Part shown: positions 863 through 6,836 of the stretch, piece by piece
Position numbering within the stretch: the first letter of the stretch is position 1
Layout: every line of letters starts with the position of its first letter
From: a virus
Lineage: Duplodnaviria; Heunggongvirae; Uroviricota; Caudoviricetes
IMG/VR virus record: IMGVR_UViG_2547132127_000012
Reading direction: 5' to 3' (one strand)
DNA: 6,836 nucleotides
Notes under the pieces: model-generated
What the model saw: only the letters and a program-made list of their open reading frames with translations
The model's database searches: none
Told to the model about the DNA's origin: nothing
Made by a program: the position numbers and the translations under genes

Positions 863-1789
863 GTGAAAGAAGCACCGATTGGTATCGAGGTCATCCCCGC
901 GCACGTCACTGAATATCTGAACAAGGTACTGACTGAAACCGATCATGCCAACCCTGATCCGAAAATCGTGGATATTGCCTGCGGTCGCTCCTCTGCCCCG
1001 ATGCCGCAGCGTGTAACAGAAGAAGGAAAACAGGATGATGAAGAAAAACCGCAGCCATCTGGCGCAATGGCAGATGAACAGGCAACGGCTGAAACAATGG
1101 AACCGGATGCAACTGAACATCATCAGAACACGCAGCCGCTGGATGCTCAGTCACAGGTAAATTCTGTTGATGAGAAATATCAGGAACTGCGGGAAGAACT
1201 CCATGAAGCCCGGAAAAACATTCCGCCCAAAAATCCTGTCGATGCAGACAAATTACTGGCTGCCTCTCGCGGAGAATTTGTTGAAGGGATTAGCGACCCG
1301 AATGATCCGAAATGGATTCCCGGTCATCATATCTCCTCAAATGAAGTCAAAAAAACGGAAAATGAAGTGCGACAGACTGAAGATAAACAGCACCAGAACA
1401 GCGAACCGGAGGAGGGAACACCCTGCAATCAGACTGGCGAGGATAACTGCCCTGACTGTGGCGCGGTGATGGGAGACGCAACTTATCAGGAAACTTTTGA
1501 CGAAAAAAAACCAGATGAAGCACAGGAAGAAGAGCCGAAGAAAACGGAAAAAGCTGATGATTTGTTACCGGAGAACGCTGGCAGCGATCAGCATAATGAT
1601 AGCAATAATGAAACTGGCGAAGATGAACTCAACTGGAAAAAACAGGTGTTGATTGCGGCGGTTTACGGTTTATGTGCGAATCCTGCGTGCATAGCCTATG
1701 CGCCTGCAATCCCTGACATCGCAATGATGATTGCCAACAAGCTTGAAAATTTTGGAGTGACCAGTGATGAGCGCTTACCCGATTTTTGA
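863..1789 (+). CDS. Highly acidic (D/E-rich) low-complexity protein, 3' fragment; 5' end probably removed by the IS insertion
   Basis: The frame is open from inside the IS across the junction at 862/863. The first ATG after the junction (1001) has no Shine-Dalgarno, and no plausible start exists between 863 and 1001. Long D/E/Q-rich tract, a Cys cluster (C-x8-C-x2-C, ...[15 protein letters not shown]...), hydrophobic C-terminus. Stop at 1787-1789 overlaps the next gene's start. Identity unknown; I have a vague, unverifiable impression of resemblance to the acidic central region of Rac RecE. Confidence 0.45.
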
Positions 1790-2039
1790 TCGTATTGAAG
1801 AAATGGCATGGGCTCGCCACTACCAGCAGATCGTTCGTGAAGAAAAAGAAACGGAACTGGCGGACGACCTGGAAAAAGGTCTGCCTCAGCACCTGTTTGA
1901 ATCGCTCTGCATCGACCATTTGCAACGCCACGGTGCCAATAAACAGGCAATCAGCCACGCATTTGATGATGATGTTGAGTTTCAGGAGCGCATGGCAGAA
2001 CACATCCGGTACATGGCTGAAACCATTGCCCACCACTAG
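1767..2039 (+). CDS. Hypothetical 90-aa acidic protein, translationally coupled to the upstream ORF
   Basis: GGAG at 1754-1757, 9 nt before ATG 1767. Start overlaps the upstream stop (1787-1789) by 23 nt. No motif recognised. Confidence 0.5.
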
Positions 2040-2068
2040 GTTGATATTGATTTGGAGGACTAAAATCT

Positions 2069-3166
2069 ATGGCGCTTTTTCAACGAGCAATAAACACACA
2101 GGCCTATCTAAAAGCAGGAATTATGGGGTTTGCTGGCGACGGCAAAACCTACACAGCAAGCGAACTGGCTATTGGTCTGGTAATGCTTATGCGGCAACGG
2201 GGAATTGAAGCTGGTAACCGCCCGGTAATGTTTCTGGACACAGAAACAGGCTCTGACTGGGTTAAACCCCGCTTTGATGCGGAAAATATCGAATTATTTA
2301 CGGCAAAAACCCGCTCGTTTGTTGATCTGCTTGAAGCCATTAATGAAGCGGAAAGCAGCGGTTCCGTAATGATCATCGACTCCATCAGTCACTTCTGGAC
2401 CGGATTATGCGACGAGTATGCCAGACGCCGAAACCGTAAACGAGGACTGGAATTTTCAGGCTGGGCGTGGCTCAAACAGGAGTGGCGACGCTTTACCGAT
2501 CGATTTGTTAACAGTCAGGCGCACATTATTATGTGCGGGCGTGCAGGATATGAGTATGACTTTTTCGAAGGTGATGATGGCAAACGCCAGTTGGCAAAAA
2601 CCGGTATAAAAATGAAAGCAGAAACAGAAACCGGTTATGAACCCTCCATCCTGATCCAGATGGAGAAGCAAATGAACATAGAAACCGGTCAGGTGTGGCG
2701 CACCGCCAGAATACTAAAAGATCGCTCCACCCGTATTGATGGACAGGTATTTTCAAACCCAACATTTAAAAACTTTCTTCCTCATATCGAGTTTCTTAAC
2801 CTGGGAGGTGAACACCCCGGCATCGATACCTCACGGGATAACAGTGAATTATTTGCCAACGACGGTACACCGACATGGCTAAAAGAAAAGCGTGCAAAAG
2901 AAATCGCACTTGATGAAATTATCGAGTTGCTCAACAAGCACCATGGGGGCACCAGTAACGACGCCAAACGCGCAAAAGCTGATTTGCTGGAAAAAACATT
3001 CACCTCCCGCTCATGGGAAAGAATCAAAGGTATGGACTGGCCGACAATCAAAGCTGGTCGTAATGCACTATGGATTGAACTGGAAGGCGTTGAATATGCA
3101 TTCCCGGATCCACAAACACAAAACGAAACGCAACAAGCAGGATACGATGAGAATATTCCGGTGTAA
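2069..3166 (+). CDS. RecA-fold P-loop NTPase (AAA_24/Sak4-like topology) with a ~250-aa C-terminal extension of unknown function
   Basis: GGAGG at 2054-2058, 10 nt before ATG 2069. Walker A GFAGDGKT (aa 20-27), acidic strand motif FLDTETG (aa ~55-61), Walker B VMIIDS (aa ~101-106). This Walker A / D-T-E / hhhhDS order is typical of RecA-like and AAA_24 phage ATPases, not ABC or classical AAA+. Family assignment is from motifs, unverified. Confidence 0.8.
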   Translation: MALFQRAINTQAYLKAGIMGFAGDGKTYTASELAIGLVMLMRQRGIEAGNRPVMFLDTETGSDWVKPRFDAENIELFTAKTRSFVDLLEAINEAESSGSVMIIDSISHFWTGLCDEYARRRNRKRGLEFSGWAWLKQEWRRFTDRFVNSQAHIIMCGRAGYEYDFFEGDDGKRQLAKTGIKMKAETETGYEPSILIQMEKQMNIETGQVWRTARILKDRSTRIDGQVFSNPTFKNFLPHIEFLNLGGEHPGIDTSRDNSELFANDGTPTWLKEKRAKEIALDEIIELLNKHHGGTSNDAKRAKADLLEKTFTSRSWERIKGMDWPTIKAGRNALWIELEGVEYAFPDPQTQNETQQAGYDENIPV

Positions 3167-3216: not shown

Positions 3217-3405
3217 ATGTATAAAATTACAGCCACTATTGAAAAGGAAGGTGGTTCTCCTACCAGCTGGACAAGATATTCAAAATCTAAACTAACGAAA
3301 TCAGAATGCGAAAAAATGCTCTCAGGGAAAAAAGAAGCAGGCGTTTCCAGAGAGCAGAAAGTAAAACTGATAAATTTTAATTGCGAGAAACTTCTGTCCT
3401 CGTGA
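3217..3405 (+). CDS. Hypothetical 62-aa lysine-rich small protein (MYKITATIEKEGG...)
   Basis: GGAGG at 3207-3211, 5 nt before ATG 3217. Lies 50 nt after the ATPase stop in an AT-rich segment and ends 36 nt before the IS left end. I suspect, but cannot verify, similarity to small Rac-prophage proteins of the ydaC type. Confidence 0.5.
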   Translation: MYKITATIEKEGGSPTSWTRYSKSKLTKSECEKMLSGKKEAGVSREQKVKLINFNCEKLLSS

Positions 3406-3441
3406 GTTGCATTATATCAAAATTAGAACTTCATAGCTGAT

Positions 3442-3470
3442 TGAGATAGCCTGAGTTTAACGGACACTCC
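3442..3470 (+). repeat. IS left terminal inverted repeat (imperfect)
   Basis: Matches the reverse complement of 4677..4705 at the terminal TGAG and the internal CGGACACT block. Confidence 0.5.
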
Positions 3471-3505
3471 TTCCTGAAATAGAATGGCATCAGAAGGAGC
3501 TAATA

Positions 3506-3808
3506 ATGAGCAGAAAAACCCAACGTTACTCTAAAGAGTTCAAAGCCGAAGCTGTCAGAACGGTTCTTGAAAATCAACTTTCGATCAGTGAAGGCGCTTC
3601 CCGATTATCTCTTCCTGAAGGCACTTTAGGACAATGGGTTACCGCCGCCAGAAAAGGGCTCGGTACTCCTGGTTCCCGCACGGTGGCTGAACTGGAATCT
3701 GAAATTCTGCAACTGCGTAAGGCGTTAAATGAAGCTCGCCTTGAGCGCGATATATTAAAAAAAGCAACAGCGTATTTTGCACAGGAGTCGCTGAAAAATA
3801 CGCGTTAA
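3506..3808 (+). CDS. IS3-family transposase OrfA (helix-turn-helix DNA-binding protein with C-terminal leucine-zipper-like region)
   Basis: AGGAG at 3494-3498, 7 nt before ATG 3506. 100-aa protein; the slippery heptamer lies near its 3' end. Confidence 0.9.
   Translation: MSRKTQRYSKEFKAEAVRTVLENQLSISEGASRLSLPEGTLGQWVTAARKGLGTPGSRTVAELESEILQLRKALNEARLERDILKKATAYFAQESLKNTR
3757..3763 (+). other. Programmed -1 ribosomal frameshift slippery heptamer (A AAA AAA) producing the OrfAB fusion transposase
   Basis: AAAAAAA then G at 3757-3764. In the orfA frame it reads ttA AAA AAA Gca. A -1 slip moves codon starts from 2 mod 3 (orfA) to 1 mod 3, the orfB frame (ATG 3844). This is the standard IS3-family arrangement. 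Confidence 0.6.
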
Positions 3809-3843
3809 TCGAACAATGGCGACAACAATTTCCCATTGAAGCG

Positions 3844-4662
3844 ATGTGTCAGGTATTTGGTGTATCCAGGAGCGGTTATTACAACTGGGTACAGCATGAA
3901 CCCTCAGACAGAAAACAAAGTGATGAGCGGCTAAAACTGGAGATTAAGGTGGCACATATCCGCACTCGCGAAACATATGGAACCCGGCGGCTCCAGACGG
4001 AGCTGGCAGAGAATGGCATCATCGTTGGTCGTGACCGACTGGCATGTCTTCGTAAGGAGCTGAGGCTACGCTGTAAGCAGAAACGCAAGTTCAGAGCGAC
4101 TACGAACCCGAACCACAATCTGCCAGTTGCGCCAAATCTGCTGAACCAGACGTTCGCTCCTACAGCACCAAATCAGGTCTGGGTGGCGGACCTGACGTAT
4201 GTTGCCACACAGGAGGGATGGTTGTACCTCGCTGGCATCAAAGATGTTTATACGTGTGAAATTGTCGGCTACGCCATGGGAGAGCGCATGACAAAAGAGC
4301 TGACAGGTAAAGCCCTGTTTATGGCGCTCAGGAGCCAGCGCCCACCTGCCGGGCTAATCCACCACTCTGATCGAGGTTCACAGTACTGCGCATACGATTA
4401 CCGGGTCATACAGGAGCAGTCTGGTCTGAAAACATCAATGTCGCGTAAAGGTAACTGTTACGACAACGCTCCGATGGAAAGCTTCTGGGGAACGCTGAAA
4501 AATGAGAGCCTGAGCCACTATCGTTTTAATAACCGGGATGAAGCCATCTCAGTAATACGGGAATACATTGAGATTTTCTACAATCGTCAGCGTCGTCACT
4601 CTCGTCTGGGGAATATCTCCCCGGCAGCCTTCAGGGAAAAATATCATCAGATGGCTGCTTAA
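3844..4662 (+). CDS. IS3-family transposase OrfB (DDE catalytic domain); in vivo made mainly as OrfAB by -1 frameshift
   Basis: 272-aa ORF identical to 1..819; lies in the -1 frame relative to orfA. Confidence 0.9.
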   Translation: MCQVFGVSRSGYYNWVQHEPSDRKQSDERLKLEIKVAHIRTRETYGTRRLQTELAENGIIVGRDRLACLRKELRLRCKQKRKFRATTNPNHNLPVAPNLLNQTFAPTAPNQVWVADLTYVATQEGWLYLAGIKDVYTCEIVGYAMGERMTKELTGKALFMALRSQRPPAGLIHHSDRGSQYCAYDYRVIQEQSGLKTSMSRKGNCYDNAPMESFWGTLKNESLSHYRFNNRDEAISVIREYIEIFYNRQRRHSRLGNISPAAFREKYHQMAA

Positions 4663-4676
4663 AAAAAGAACAAATG

Positions 4677-4705
4677 GTAGTGTCCGCTATTGCCAGTACA
4701 CCTCA
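4677..4705 (+). repeat. IS right terminal inverted repeat (imperfect)
   Basis: Reverse complement aligns with 3442..3470. The same sequence ends copy 1 at 834..862. Confidence 0.5.
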
Positions 4706-4727
4706 GATTATTAAAAATCAACCACAC

Positions 4728-4756: not shown

Positions 4757-4778
4757 TCATATCGTGAGAGGTATGGCA

Positions 4779-5060
4779 ATGAATCTTGTGACACTCAAAA
4801 CGTGGGGAAAACTCAGATATCCGGATAACCCACCATCAATATCAACGCTGAGACGATGGGCAAGGAATGGAAACATTTATCCTGCACCTGCACTACACGG
4901 GAGGAGTTACAGGGTGGTTCCGGAGGCTTTCTATATCAACCCAAATAAGGTTGATACCGATATAACACACCATCAGCCTAATGGGCGACAAGGGAGAGAC
5001 AGTCCGTTAATGGAGAAGTTAAAACATGCAGCGGAAAAAATACGATCCCAATTTGCCTAG
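4779..5060 (+). CDS. xis: Excisionase (lambda Xis-like, winged-helix recombination directionality factor)
   Basis: GAGAGG at 4765-4770, 8 nt before ATG 4779. Product MNLVTLKTWGKLRYPDNPPSISTLRRWARNGNIYPAPALHGRSYRV... resembles lambda Xis (MYLTLQEWNARQRRPRSLETVRRWVRECRIFPPP...). Overlaps int by 35 nt, as in lambda xis-int. The track's longer ORF start (4674) lies inside the IS and is rejected. Confidence 0.7.
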   Translation: MNLVTLKTWGKLRYPDNPPSISTLRRWARNGNIYPAPALHGRSYRVVPEAFYINPNKVDTDITHHQPNGRQGRDSPLMEKLKHAAEKIRSQFA

Positions 5061-6102
5061 AAACTTAACATATCGAAGGAGAGACAAAGCATATTACTGG
5101 CGCAACCCTCTGACGAAAGAAGAATTTACACTAGGTAAAATTTCAAGAAGAGATGCAGTAGCGCAGGCAATTGAAGCAAATCATTATATATACAAAAACT
5201 ACTCTCCTGCTGCCCTAATTGAAAAGCTTAAAGGGGTCGACTCATTTACTATGGCAGGCTGGATTGAACGTTACAAAACGATTCTTATAAGGAGAAAAGC
5301 GTCCAGAAATACTTATAAAACTCGGGTAAATCAACTGGAGACAATAAAAGAAAAATTAGGAGGGGTTTTACTGACAGAAATAACCACTCGCCATATCGCC
5401 GAGTTTCTTGATTTGTGGATTGAAGGAGGGAAAAACACGATGGCAGGATCAATGCGTTCTGTGTTATCTGATATGTTCCGCGAAGCCATTGTTGAAGGAC
5501 GTATATCTCAAAATCCAGTAACGCCAACAAGAGCACCGAAAATAGTAGTTACAAGAGAACGGCTGAAACTAAAGACATACAACTGCATCAGGGAGGCAGC
5601 AGATCAACTTCCGGCATGGTTCCCATTAGCTATGGACTTAGCCCTTGTAACAGGACAACGTCGCGAAGACATAACGAATATGCGGTTCAGTGATATTTAT
5701 GATGATCGTCTCCACATCAGGCAAATTAAGACAGGAATGATGATTGCTATCCCCCTGTCACTCAGCCTTCCTGTCGCTGGTTTACGACTTGGTGCAGTAG
5801 TTGAACAGTGCCGCATGGTAAGTAGGGGGGATTATCTAATCAGTGCCGGGATTAGAAAAAACAGCCCTGACGGCAGCATTCACCCGGACGGCCTGACAAA
5901 GAAATTTGTCGCAGCCAGAAAATTAACAGGTATCCTGTTCAGTGAAAACCCACCAACTTTTCACGAAATCAGAAGCCTGGCTGGACGATTGTACAAAGAA
6001 ATATGTGGAGAAGAATTTGCTCAGCGTCTACTTGGCCACACATCGGAGAAGACAACAAAAATGTATCTTGATGAGAGAGAAAAAACGTACTTACTGCTCT
6101 GA
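5026..6102 (+). CDS. int: Lambda-family tyrosine integrase (site-specific recombinase)
   Basis: GGAG at 5012-5015, 10 nt before ATG. N-terminal arm-binding region ([30 protein letters not shown]) parallels lambda Int. Catalytic motifs present: [10 protein letters not shown] (Arg), [11 protein letters not shown] (His-x-x-Arg), [13 protein letters not shown] (His...Tyr nucleophile). Confidence 0.9.
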
Positions 6103-6118
6103 TTTTAACGTAAATGGA

Positions 6119-6148
6119 TTGTTAAATGTATTTTGGTTGTGATATAAC
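6119..6148 (+). promoter_or_regulatory. Candidate sigma-70 promoter with extended -10, firing toward the sRNA locus
   Basis: -35 TTGTTA (6119-6124), 18-nt spacer, TGa + TATAAC (6140-6148). Predicted start near 6155-6157. Hexamer prediction only. Confidence 0.3.
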
Positions 6149-6180
6149 CAAAAAAGACCGGAATACAGAAATTCGAGTAA

Positions 6181-6200
6181 ATTTCGGGGAATTTCGGGGA
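6181..6200. repeat. Perfect tandem direct repeat, 2 x 10 bp (atttcgggga atttcgggga), with a degenerate third unit just upstream (6171-6180)
   Basis: Read directly. It sits between the int stop and the sdsR 3' end, where lambda-type P' arm Int-binding sites would be expected. Confidence 0.6.
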
Positions 6201-6233
6201 GACGTTTGCAACTAATTGATTTTAAATACAATT

Positions 6234-6267
6234 AAAAAAAGACCGAATACGATTCCTGTATTCGGTC
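6234..6267 (-). terminator. Intrinsic terminator of SdsR (10-bp perfect stem, 7-nt loop, then U7 on the minus strand)
   Basis: gaccgaatac (6241-6250) pairs with gtattcggtc (6258-6267); loop gattcct. A7 at 6234-6240 on the plus strand is U7 on the minus strand directly after the hairpin. Confidence 0.8.
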
Positions 6268-6336
6268 CAGGGAAATGGCTCTTGGGAGAGAGCCGTGCGC
6301 TAAAAGTTGGCATTAATGCAGGCTTAGTTGCCTTGC
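6235..6336 (-). ncRNA. sdsR: SdsR (RyeB) small regulatory RNA, RpoS-dependent, ~102 nt
   Basis: Minus strand reads GCAAGGCAACTAAGCCTGCATTAATGCCAACTTTTAGCGCACGGCTCTCTCCCAAGAGCCATTTCCCTGGACCGAATACAGGAATCGTATTCGGTC then a T-run, which matches my recollection of enterobacterial SdsR. Internal hairpin ggctct...agagcc, terminal terminator, sigma-S-type -10 just upstream. Confidence 0.8.
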
Positions 6337-6339
6337 CCT

Positions 6340-6375
6340 TTAAGAATAGATGACGACGCCAGGTTTTCCAGTTTG
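6340..6375 (-). promoter_or_regulatory. Sigma-S-type promoter of sdsR
   Basis: On the minus strand, -14 to -4 relative to the proposed start (6336) reads TCTATTCTTAA, close to the sigma-S extended -10 consensus TCTATACTTAA including the -13 C. No clear -35, as is usual for sigma-S promoters. Confidence 0.5.
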
Positions 6376-6423
6376 CGTGCAAAATGGTCAATAAAAAGCG
6401 CGGTGGTCATCAGCTTAAATGTT

Positions 6424-6465
6424 AAAAACCGCCCGTTCTGGTGAAAGAACTGAGGCGGTTTTTTT
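6424..6465. terminator. Bidirectional intrinsic terminator between yebY (minus) and the sRNA locus
   Basis: Stem ccgcc (6429-6433) / ggcgg (6454-6458) with extension gttc/gaac, flanked by A5 (6424-6428) and T7 (6459-6465), so hairpin plus U-run is present on both strands. It lies 30 nt beyond the yebY stop. Confidence 0.75.
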
Positions 6466-6494
6466 ATTGGAAATCAAAAGGCTATTTTAGGTAA

Positions 6495-6836
6495 TTAACA
6501 GAGTTTTTCAGCTCGTTCTATAAACGGTGCCAGACTCATTTTTTCGCCGGGATTGTTAGGATCATCAATCTGAATCACCGAAATGGGTTGGGCATTGGTC
6601 TTCCCACTGGCAACTTCCTTTTGTGCGATATCGTTTAAAGGATACTGCACGAGGGTACTTGGGTTGATGACATACAAAGCATTACCCGGTCGGCAAGTCA
6701 GCATTACCTCTTCGCGATTAAACGCCCATTTGTCTTTACCCACTTCAAAACGACTCACGGTTATCACCTGTGGAGCCGCCAGCGCCGCTGCAGAACTGGT
6801 GAGTAACAGAAACGCCAGAATACTTTTTTTCATCAT
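6495..6836 (-). CDS. yebY: Small exported protein with Sec signal peptide ([20 protein letters not shown]|APQ), probably host protein YebY (DUF2511)
   Basis: 113-aa ORF with a typical n/h/c signal peptide and AxA cleavage motif. Its position next to sdsR/ryeA matches my recollection of the E. coli pphA-ryeA/sdsR-yebY neighbourhood. The ATG is at the window edge (6834-6836), so upstream signals are not visible. Confidence 0.8.

What the first reader, a model, noticed from the sequence alone, without database searches (positions are those of the whole stretch)
2069..3166. RecA-fold ATPase with a long uncharacterised C-terminal domain: core of a candidate undescribed prophage module
The 365-aa protein has clean Walker A (GFAGDGKT), a D-T-E strand and Walker B (VMIIDS) in RecA/AAA_24 (Sak4-like) order, but about 250 residues follow that I cannot place in any family. 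It sits in the int-proximal accessory region of a lambdoid prophage, where recombination modules and also superinfection-exclusion, defense and anti-defense genes are found. Two readings are open: (a) a Sak4-like annealing ATPase replacing the usual RecT/Red-beta, or (b) the NTPase of an uncharacterised defense or anti-defense system. The C-terminal domain is the part most likely to be new.
Basis: partly seen in the sequence, partly recalled or inferred. Interest (0 to 1): 0.7.

Follow-up and report, generated by a model that had tools for sequence, protein, structure and literature searches.

The report
Long Sak4-like phage recombinase ATPase
The gene encodes an uncharacterised, longer relative of the phage Sak4 (RecA/Rad51-fold) DNA-annealing recombinases; it sits where recT would be in a decayed Rac-like prophage, so it is most likely an ordinary recombination gene and not a new defence system.

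Summary
The ORF (2069-3166, 365 aa) and its Walker A, DTE and Walker B motifs are real. It has a strong SD site and about 2,000 homologues.

The "250 unplaced residues" is an overstatement:
- The part that is really unassigned is a helical domain of about 115 aa (233-345) plus a disordered acidic tail.
- That domain matches no Pfam family, PDB sequence or specific fold. In 674 library hits it is found essentially only behind this ATPase core.

Context favours recombination:
- The window is a Rac-like prophage arm. The RecE nuclease domain, recT and ralR have been replaced by gam plus this gene, followed by rcbA, xis and int.
- In relatives the gene always lies between repressor and integrase. 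It is often translationally coupled to SSB, NinB/Orf or an endonuclease.
- Inducible phage phiES15 has kil-gam-ATPase and no other annotated annealase.
- There are no PADLOC hits and no defence neighbours.

Verdict: a C-terminally extended, uncharacterised branch of the Sak4/AAA_24 recombinases. It is a new variant of a known kind and of moderate interest. An SSB-tip-like D-[DE]-[IV]-P tail motif is the most intriguing loose end.

The parts
2055..2060 (+). Shine-Dalgarno site GGAGGA, 8 nt upstream of the ATG
   Evidence: read directly in the sequence
2069..3166 (+). CDS of the 365-aa AAA_24 / Sak4-like RecA-fold ATPase
   Evidence: ORF. Pfam AAA_24 56.5 bits. phrog_1366 6.9e-80 and phrog_124 'Sak4-like' 1.4e-8. 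99% identical to proteins named 'AAA family ATPase' in Shigella and E. coli.
2069..2758 (+). RecA/Rad51-type ATPase core, residues 1-230
2126..2149 (+). Walker A motif GFAGDGKT (residues 20-27)
   Evidence: G20, F21, A22, G23, G25, K26 and T27 are invariant in 31 homologues
2237..2245 (+). D57-T58-E59 at the end of strand 2; E59 is the presumed catalytic glutamate of the RecA superfamily
   Evidence: invariant; the catalytic role is inferred from knowledge of the RecA superfamily
2366..2383 (+). Walker B strand VMIIDS (residues 100-105)
   Evidence: D104 and S105 are invariant
2600..2647 (+). Conserved but disordered loop KTGIKMKAETETGYEPS (residues about 178-193), candidate L2-like ssDNA-binding loop
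   Evidence: K181, M182, E185, E187, T188, E191, P192 and S193 are invariant, yet pLDDT is below 50 for 183-189. The DNA-binding role is an inference.
2765..3103 (+). Family-specific helical C-terminal domain (residues 233-345), function unknown
3104..3163 (+). Disordered acidic tail ending ...GYDENIPV, resembling the SSB tip DDDIPF
   Evidence: pLDDT below 50 for 350-365. [DE][DE][IVLM]P occurs in the last 20 aa of 29 of 110 homologues, against 2.2 +/- 1.5 in shuffled tails.
1767..2039 (+). gam (RecBCD inhibitor), cut 8 codons short by a premature TAG
   Evidence: Pfam Gam E 3.9e-52. The window has TAG where E. coli FDAARGOS_944 has CAG.
863..1789 (+). Remnant of a RecE-family gene that lacks the nuclease domain; its 5' part is cut off by IS600
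   Evidence: NCBIfam PRK09709, positions 336-596 of 877. The intact version in L001 aligns only to Rac RecE residues 1-585 of 866.
3217..3405 (+). rcbA (ydaC)-like DUF1187 gene
   Evidence: Pfam DUF1187 E 1.7e-36. 95% identical to the Rac 'double-strand break reduction protein' RcbA.
3437..4708 (+). IS600 inserted between rcbA and xis. A second copy, cut by the window edge, lies at 1 to about 862.
   Evidence: 99.4% identical to annotated IS600. Direct repeat 1-300 / 3844-4143. Identical orfB at both sites.
4773..6102 (+). Excisionase (within 4773-5060) and tyrosine integrase (5026-6102) at the prophage end, next to chromosomal yebY
   Evidence: Pfam Exc, Phage_integrase and Arm-DNA-bind_1. 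yebY.

Best explanation
The protein is the strand-annealing recombinase of the prophage's recombination (Rec) module. It belongs to an uncharacterised, C-terminally extended branch of the Sak4/AAA_24 group of RecA/Rad51-fold phage recombinases.

Proposed mechanism, inferred by analogy with HK620 Sak4 and phage 52A Sak4:
- After induction, Gam blocks RecBCD and so protects linear phage DNA ends.
- The ATPase binds ATP through its Walker A and B motifs and the catalytic Glu59.
- It oligomerises on ssDNA and pairs complementary single strands. This supports recombination-dependent replication, repair and the formation of mosaics.
- The roughly 115-aa helical C-terminal domain and the acidic D-E-x-I-P tail are proposed to be partner-interaction or autoregulatory elements, for example contacts with SSB or with other protomers.

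Shown here: the family, the fold, motif conservation, genomic position and the module swap. Inferred: annealing activity, ATP dependence, oligomeric form and the role of the C-terminal domain.
For: 1. Family. Pfam AAA_24, which the SSAP literature equates with Sak4 (PMC8093625), scores 56.5 bits against a cut-off of 27. phrog_124 'Sak4-like ssDNA annealing protein' gives E 1.4e-8.

3. Motifs. Walker A, DTE and Walker B are invariant, as are the basic residues R211, K217 and R219 of the beta-hairpin.

4. Module swap. In the intact E. coli version the locus is Rac-like: racR-like, DUF1391, ydaE, recE... Its RecE aligns only to Rac RecE residues 1-585. Then gam and the ATPase replace the nuclease domain, recT and ralR, and homology resumes at rcbA with 95% identity.

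5. Inducible phage phiES15 has kil-gam-ATPase(84% identity)-DUF7740-Dam-xis-int. It has no other annotated annealase and carries RusA.

6. Across 51 non-redundant loci the gene lies between repressor and integrase. Often-coupled genes immediately downstream include SSB in 6 loci, a 160-aa protein ending in DGDIPF, NinB/Orf and an EndoVII/HNH endonuclease. Gam lies upstream in 5 loci. No RecT, Erf or Bet was seen nearby.

7. The nearest other phage relatives (hhalign probability 98%) sit in exonuclease-ATPase-SSB modules and are annotated as recombinases: HC6, Murka and a Vibrio phage. A mycobacteriophage relative of this type is reported to be a DNA-stimulated ATPase (PMC10194130).
Against: - No member of this subfamily has been tested. 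Its best PHROG, 1366, is labelled 'unknown function'.
- There is no detectable pairwise or profile similarity to HK620 Sak4 itself, and no PDB sequence hit even with a profile.
- The protein breaks the original 'core-only, under 290 aa' Sak4 criterion (PMC2896510).
- An adjacent recognisable SSB occurs in only about 7 of 51 loci and not in this window, whereas up to 80% is reported for sak4 genes (PMC5928155).
- Foldseek's top hits were hexameric KaiC, and the mycobacteriophage relative is reported as a hexamer with a pore (PMC10194130). A ring ATPase is therefore not excluded.
- In this window the module is decayed: IS600 insertions, a truncated recE and a gam with a premature stop. Present-day function in this host is uncertain.
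Confidence: 0.7

Rival explanations
1. It is a RecA-fold ring ATPase with a different DNA transaction role, such as a helicase, translocase, replication-restart or helicase-loading factor of the early operon, and not an annealase.
For: Foldseek's best PDB hits are hexameric KaiC. The mycobacteriophage AAA_24 relative (31-33% identity over the core) is reported as a DNA-stimulated ATPase hexamer with a central pore (PMC10194130). Some longer family members carry AT-hook tails, or a SWIM-like zinc finger, that could anchor them to dsDNA.
Confidence: 0.13
2. It is a Rad51-paralogue-like accessory factor that modulates the host RecA, RecFOR or SSB pathways. It would act as a mediator or regulator and would not itself anneal DNA.
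For: Its closest folds include the RAD51 paralogues RAD51D, XRCC3, XRCC2 and RAD51C. It pairs with Gam, and in one locus with NinB/Orf, a known recombination mediator. Its SSB-tip-like acidic tail could engage proteins that bind SSB.
Against: HK620 Sak4 showed no functional interaction with RecA and anneals DNA on its own (PMC5928155). phiES15 has no other annotated annealase to assist. The swap with recT argues for equivalence to an annealase.
Confidence: 0.1
3. It is the NTPase of an uncharacterised anti-phage defence, superinfection-exclusion or anti-defence system carried as a prophage moron.
For: It lies in a prophage region where such genes do occur. The C-terminal domain is unassigned, and many neighbouring small ORFs are of unknown function.
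Against: No PADLOC model hits the protein or its neighbours. No defence-type families appear among about 320 neighbouring ORFs scanned. The gene is co-directional with, and often translationally coupled into, the early-left operon, whereas a moron would be expressed from the prophage. Conservation is strong and full-length.
Confidence: 0.04

Closest known systems
Sak4 family of phage 'core-only RecA' single-strand annealing recombinases (lactococcal phi31 Sak4; HK620 HkaL/Sak4; S. aureus phage 52A Sak4, PDB 8RC5)
   Different: It is 365 aa against about 220-245 aa. It carries an extra helical domain of about 115 aa and an acidic tail, so it fails the 'core-only, under 290 aa' criterion (PMC2896510). 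No direct sequence similarity to HK620 Sak4 is detectable. It falls in a separate PHROG, 1366. Most loci, including this window, have no recognisable adjacent SSB.
Long AAA_24 'recombinase' proteins in exonuclease-ATPase-SSB modules of virulent and temperate phages (E. coli phage HC6, Xanthomonas phage Murka, Vibrio phage 1.186.O) and the mycobacteriophage cluster F AAA-ATPase (SimranZ1 gp65 type)
   Same: The ATPase core is homologous: 30-35% identity and hhalign probability 98%. Lengths are similar at 296-345 aa, so these too have C-terminal extensions. Their context is recombination, next to exonuclease VIII/PDDEXK and SSB.
   Different: Their C-terminal regions do not align with this family's domain. 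In Enterobacteriaceae this family pairs with Gam and has no nuclease gene.
RecT of the Rac prophage and Red-beta of lambda (Rad52-like annealases)
   Same: The genomic slot and presumed role are the same. In a Rac-type backbone this gene, together with gam, replaces recT and the RecE nuclease domain. In phiES15 it follows gam, as bet does in lambda.
   Different: The fold is unrelated: a RecA-type ATPase against a Rad52-like, ATP-independent ring or filament. The C-terminal domain shows no similarity to Red-beta or its C-terminal domain (hhalign probability 0.2%).

Membership tests
Sak4 / AAA_24 phage recombinases | Match to Pfam AAA_24 (PF13479) above the gathering threshold | tested here: met
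   56.5 bits against a cut-off of 27, residues 14-187. HK620 Sak4 itself scores 30 bits.
Sak4 / AAA_24 phage recombinases | RecA/Rad51-type ATPase core with Walker A, a catalytic Glu and Walker B | tested here: met
Sak4 / AAA_24 phage recombinases | 'Core-only' architecture: under 290 aa with no extra domain (Lopes et al. 2010, PMC2896510) | tested here: not met
   365 aa, with a helical domain at 233-345 and a tail
Sak4 / AAA_24 phage recombinases | Gene located in the phage recombination module | tested here: met
   recE'-gam-ATPase-rcbA-xis-int here. The gene lies between repressor and int in relatives.
Sak4 / AAA_24 phage recombinases | Adjacent cognate SSB gene (up to 80% of sak4 genes, PMC5928155) | tested here: not met
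   There is no SSB in the window. In relatives, PF00436 SSB is directly downstream in 6 of 35 viral loci, plus one protein with a DGDIPF tail, and in 0 of 16 genome loci. The association recurs but in a minority of loci.
Sak4 / AAA_24 phage recombinases | ATP-dependent ssDNA binding, single-strand annealing and recombineering activity | not testable with these tools
   Needs biochemistry or genetics. No member of phrog_1366 has been characterised.
Canonical RecA / UvsX recombinases | Pfam RecA match and a RecA-type C-terminal (or Rad51-type N-terminal) DNA-binding domain | tested here: not met
   No RecA family hit at E <= 0.1. The C-terminal domain matches no solved fold specifically.
DnaB-like replicative helicases | DnaB N-terminal domain plus DnaB_C ATPase | tested here: not met
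Known anti-phage defence system NTPases (PADLOC-DB v2) | Match to a defence-system protein model and defence-type neighbours | tested here: not met
   No PADLOC hit for the protein or its three neighbours. No defence families among the neighbours.
Red-beta C-terminal-domain-like HTH appended to some SSAPs (PMC8093625) | C-terminal domain homologous to the Red-beta CTD (PDB 6M9K) | tested here: not met

The most novel reading that the evidence does not exclude
The family-specific helical domain and the acidic D-[DE]-[IV]-P tail could form a built-in SSB-tip mimic with its receptor. The tail would resemble DDDIPF, and the invariant residues K300, R314, W316, R331 and W335 of the domain would form a pocket that binds the SSB C-terminus. 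This would let a RecA-fold annealase work without a phage SSB, or tap the host SSB interactome, by binding host SSB or by tail-to-domain contacts between protomers. That would be a previously undescribed way of coupling a Rad51-like recombinase to SSB.
Probability: 0.2. Interest if true: 0.6.

Novelty: new variant of a known kind. Interest (0 to 1): 0.35.

Why it matters
If this family is confirmed as an annealase, it would add a widespread long-form branch to the Rad51-like phage recombinases. The branch has about 2,000 close homologues, and the C-terminal domain defines 674 clusters spread across Proteobacteria, Chloroflexota, Planctomycetota and Bacteroidota. Current annotation labels these proteins only 'AAA family ATPase' or 'unknown function'. 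Surveys that use the under-290-aa Sak4 rule would therefore score such phages as lacking a recombinase.

The natural swap of Gam plus this ATPase for the RecE nuclease domain plus RecT shows how Rec modules are exchanged between prophages.

In practical terms, a compact Gam-plus-ATPase pair that may not need its own SSB could be a candidate recombineering tool. The new C-terminal domain and the SSB-like tail give a concrete handle on how RecA-fold annealases are coupled to SSB.

It does not open a new category of biology.

Tried and rejected
- **Defence reading.** A PADLOC scan of the ATPase and its neighbours gave nothing. Neighbour scans gave no defence families.
- **Identifying the C-terminal domain.**
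  - Pfam at E <= 10 returned only noise.
  - A profile search of PDB sequences returned one E 1.2 hit.
  - hhalign against lambda Red-beta and against the C-terminus of the phage HC6 relative gave probabilities below 1%.
- **Direct link to HK620 Sak4.** BLASTP and hhalign were not significant. The link therefore rests on the shared Pfam family and on structure.
- **PDB sequence searches** with the single protein and with the family profile gave no hits.
- **NCBIfam** has no model for the protein.
- **Domain fusions as functional clues.** Ten longer proteins were scanned. They have only the AAA_24 core plus low-complexity tails. AT-hooks and one SWIM-like finger were seen by eye.
- **Does the acidic tail motif replace an adjacent SSB gene?** There is no clear anticorrelation. 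L067 has both, and L005, L054 and L060 carry a variant 'NLIPE' tail with SSB.
- **Is phiES15 classified in the 2025 survey of lambdoid Rec modules?** This could not be checked, because its supplementary tables are not held.

Full report
**1. The observation**

The window contains an ATG-initiated ORF at 2069-3166 on the + strand, encoding 365 aa. GGAGGA lies 8 nt upstream of the start.
- Walker A GFAGDGKT, residues 20-27
- FLDTE, residues 55-59
- Walker B VMIIDS, residues 100-105

All three are invariant in an alignment of 31 homologues that share 59-88% identity with the window protein.

The ORF is clearly a real gene:
- Pfam AAA_24 gives E 4.3e-15 and 56.5 bits against a cut-off of 27.
- PHROG 1366 gives E 6.9e-80 over residues 2-304, and PHROG 124 'Sak4-like ssDNA annealing protein' gives E 1.4e-8.
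- 1,991 database proteins match at E <= 1e-3. Most are full-length, about 355-380 aa, and 60-75% identical, from beta- and gamma-proteobacteria.

The sequence is 99% identical to 'AAA family ATPase' proteins of Shigella and E. coli. Only 10 of 5,426 complete E. coli genomes carry the whole gene. A Shigella flexneri chromosome holds a 99% match.

**2. How much is really unplaced**

The claim that about 250 residues after Walker B are unplaceable does not hold.
- The AAA_24 match already covers residues 14-187.
- The AlphaFold2 model built on the family alignment has mean pLDDT 84. It shows a RecA-type alpha/beta core up to about residue 230.
- After the core come helices at 233-242, 269-291, 297-311, 316-320 and 324-339, and then a disordered tail with pLDDT below 50 from residue 350.
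- Foldseek aligns about 230 columns of the model to KaiC C1 domains, which belong to the RecA superfamily.

The part that is really unassigned is therefore a helical domain of about 115 aa and a tail of about 20 aa.

**3. The C-terminal domain**

I modelled residues 226-350 separately (pLDDT 78) and searched for matches:
- Pfam gave nothing.
- A profile search of PDB sequences gave nothing.
- hhalign against lambda Red-beta gave probability 0.2%. [quoted passage not shown]

A profile of the domain searched against 1.84 billion cluster representatives found 674 proteins at E <= 1e-3. The match is nearly always at positions about 220-360 of proteins 350-500 aa long. Eight of ten longer proteins that I scanned have the AAA_24 core N-terminal to it. 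The domain is therefore specific to this ATPase family. Some long members end in AT-hook-rich tails (RGRP repeats), and one begins with a SWIM-like zinc finger. Both features suggest association with DNA.

Distant full-length relatives of 32-42% identity occur in metagenome-assembled genomes (MAGs) from Planctomycetota, Chloroflexota and Cytophagales.

**4. Genomic context in the window**

Reading left to right on the + strand:

| Coordinates | Feature | Evidence |
|---|---|---|
| 1 to about 862 | IS600 orfB, cut by the window edge | |
| 863-1789 | RecE-family fragment | NCBIfam PRK09709, positions 336-596 of 877 |
| 1767-2039 | gam | Pfam E 3.9e-52 |
| 2069-3166 | the ATPase | see section 1 |
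| 3217-3405 | DUF1187 gene, 95% identical to Rac RcbA/YdaC | |
| 3437-4708 | complete IS600 | |
| 4773-5060 and 5026-6102 | xis and int | |
| 6495-6836, - strand | chromosomal yebY | |

In an E. coli genome without the IS elements, the order is: racR-like repressor, DUF1391, Rha, ydaE, RecE ('missing C-terminus'), gam, ATPase, DUF1187, xis, int. Rac in K-12 has racR, ydaG, ydaF, sieB, kilR, ydaE, racC, recE, recT, ralR, rcbA, xisR, intR.

The RecE of the E. coli version aligns with Rac RecE residues 1-585 of 866 at 69% identity and then diverges. From established knowledge of RecE, residues from about 588 to 866 form the exonuclease domain. The RecE nuclease domain, recT and ralR have therefore been replaced by a short unrelated tail, gam and this ATPase. 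This is a natural swap of an exonuclease-plus-annealase pair for an anti-RecBCD-plus-ATPase pair. HK620 has the same logic: Sak4, SSB and Abc2 with no nuclease.

**5. Context in relatives**

- The inducible Cronobacter phage phiES15 has kil, gam, the ATPase (84% identity, start overlapping the gam stop), DUF7740, Dam methylase, xis and int. It has no other annotated annealase in its 53 genes and carries RusA.
- In Achromobacter-type prophages the gene is directly followed by SSB, with overlapping stop and start.
- In Pseudomonas and another proteobacterial contig it lies between the repressor and int, among small early genes.
- I called ORFs around 35 non-redundant viral-contig loci and 16 bacterial-genome loci and scanned about 320 neighbours against Pfam:
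  - The commonest identifiable downstream family is SSB (6 loci) and the commonest upstream family is Gam (5 loci).
  - Others are integrases, DNA methylases, HTH and S24 repressors, NinB, RusA, HNH, DnaB and helicases.
  - No RecT, Erf or Bet appeared in the listed families (the full upstream table, and the first 25 families of the other two tables). No defence-type families appeared either.
- Individually scanned genes immediately downstream, most of them overlapping the ATPase stop, include a NinB/Orf recombination mediator and an endonuclease VII/HNH protein. A 160-aa protein ending in DGDIPF, the SSB tip, follows the most distant relative.
- PADLOC has no hit for the ATPase or its neighbours.

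**6. Nearest other relatives**

tblastn against phage genomes finds core-only similarity of 28-33% over residues 4-200 in 377 phages. hhalign probabilities are 98% for three examples:

| Phage | Annotation and length | Context |
|---|---|---|
| E. coli phage HC6 | 'recombinase', 345 aa | near SSB |
| Xanthomonas phage Murka | 'recombination and repair protein', 321 aa | between exonuclease VIII and SSB |
| Mycobacteriophage | AAA-ATPase, 296 aa | |

A Vibrio phage protein (334 aa) lies after a PDDEXK exonuclease. Its core similarity rests on the tblastn match alone (28.8% identity).

Gp65 of mycobacteriophage SimranZ1, a member of the cluster F group of AAA-ATPases, is reported as a DNA-stimulated ATPase forming hexamers (PMC10194130). 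These relatives also exceed 290 aa, but their C-terminal regions do not align with this family's domain.

**7. Comparison with what is known**

- Sak4 was defined as a 'mini-Rad51' or 'core-only RecA' of under 290 aa (PMC2896510).
- HK620 Sak4 binds ssDNA and anneals it in an ATP-dependent way. [quoted passage not shown]
- Phage 52A Sak4 forms Rad51-like filaments (PMC11846896).
- Pfam AAA_24 is used as the Sak4 family in SSAP surveys (PMC8093625).
- A 2025 survey of lambdoid Rec modules recognises one Rad51/RecA-type annealase type beside seven Rad52-like types. It also notes 'RecE-2' proteins that lack a nuclease domain (PMC12315714).

The present protein meets the family, fold and position criteria. 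It fails the 'core-only' criterion and, in this window, the SSB-adjacency criterion. It shows no direct sequence similarity to HK620 Sak4.

I therefore file it as working like a Sak4-type recombinase. It belongs to the AAA_24 superfamily but is a distinct, uncharacterised long-form branch.

**8. The tail**

The last 15-20 residues are disordered and acidic. The mean net charge of the last 25 residues is -4.7. The window protein ends in ...GYDENIPV.

[DE][DE][IVLM]P occurs in the last 20 residues of 29 of 110 full-length homologues, against 2.2 +/- 1.5 in shuffled tails and almost never elsewhere in the proteins. Many others have looser versions such as SDVP, TDVP, NLIPE or DDDIPE. 42 of 110 end in -AA.

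This resembles the SSB C-terminal tip DDDIPF. The homologues are related, so the counts are not independent events, although the surrounding tail sequence is otherwise very variable. I could not show that the motif substitutes for an adjacent SSB gene. This is the basis of the 'novel case'. It remains a hypothesis.

**9. Verdict**

A further 0.1 goes to a closely related accessory or mediator role. Option (b), defence, is not supported (about 0.04). A ring helicase or translocase role remains a minority rival (about 0.13).

The finding is a new variant of a known kind. It is interesting mainly because the family-specific C-terminal domain and the SSB-like tail are uncharacterised, and because annotation pipelines and length-filtered Sak4 surveys miss this family. 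Interest is 0.35.

In this particular genome the module is decaying. It has two IS600 copies, a truncated recE and a gam with a premature stop. The ATPase ORF is still intact.

Noticed in passing
window 2037-2039 (gam, 1767-2039): gam carries a premature TAG where E. coli FDAARGOS_944 has CAG. This removes the last 8 residues (QVDIDLED) and widens the gam-ATPase gap from 5 to 29 nt. It is a sign of decay in this prophage.
   Followed up: yes
window 1 to about 862 and 3437-4708: Two direct copies of IS600 bracket the recE'-gam-ATPase-rcbA segment. The left copy, cut by the window edge, truncates recE. The right copy sits between rcbA and xis. The arrangement looks like a composite transposon, and recombination between the copies could delete the segment.
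   Followed up: partly
window 863-1789; L001 7132-9090: The RecE-family protein here keeps only the part equivalent to Rac RecE residues 1-585 and has no nuclease domain. It ends in an unrelated tail of about 55 aa finishing ...SDERLPDF, which also looks like an acidic SSB-tip-like ending. This matches the 'RecE-2' class of unknown role mentioned in PMC12315714.
   Followed up: partly
window 3217-3405: The small gene downstream of the ATPase is 95% identical to Rac RcbA (YdaC), annotated 'double-strand break reduction protein'. It is another DNA-break-related function in the same operon.
   Followed up: yes
window 3104-3163 and homologues P0001-P0120: The ATPase family has acidic, disordered C-terminal tails with a recurrent D-[DE]-[IV]-P motif resembling the SSB tip. 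42 of 110 homologues end in -AA, which is reminiscent of ssrA/ClpXP-type C-terminal degrons.
   Followed up: partly
P0243, P0257, P0254 (distant family members): Some long relatives carry several AT-hook motifs (RGRP/KRGRPRK) in extended low-complexity tails. One has an N-terminal SWIM-like CxC...CxH zinc finger.
   Followed up: no
L079 7113-7310; L116 1915-2397: Small genes immediately downstream of distant ATPase homologues end in ...LQPLPF and ...DGDIPF. The second looks like a divergent SSB that PF00436 does not recognise, so SSB adjacency may be under-counted.
   Followed up: no
window 5026-6836: The prophage integrase abuts chromosomal yebY. The E. coli prophage carrying the same gam-ATPase-rcbA block is integrated next to ybhA/modC with a different integrase. 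The Rec block has therefore moved between prophages with different integration modules.
   Followed up: partly
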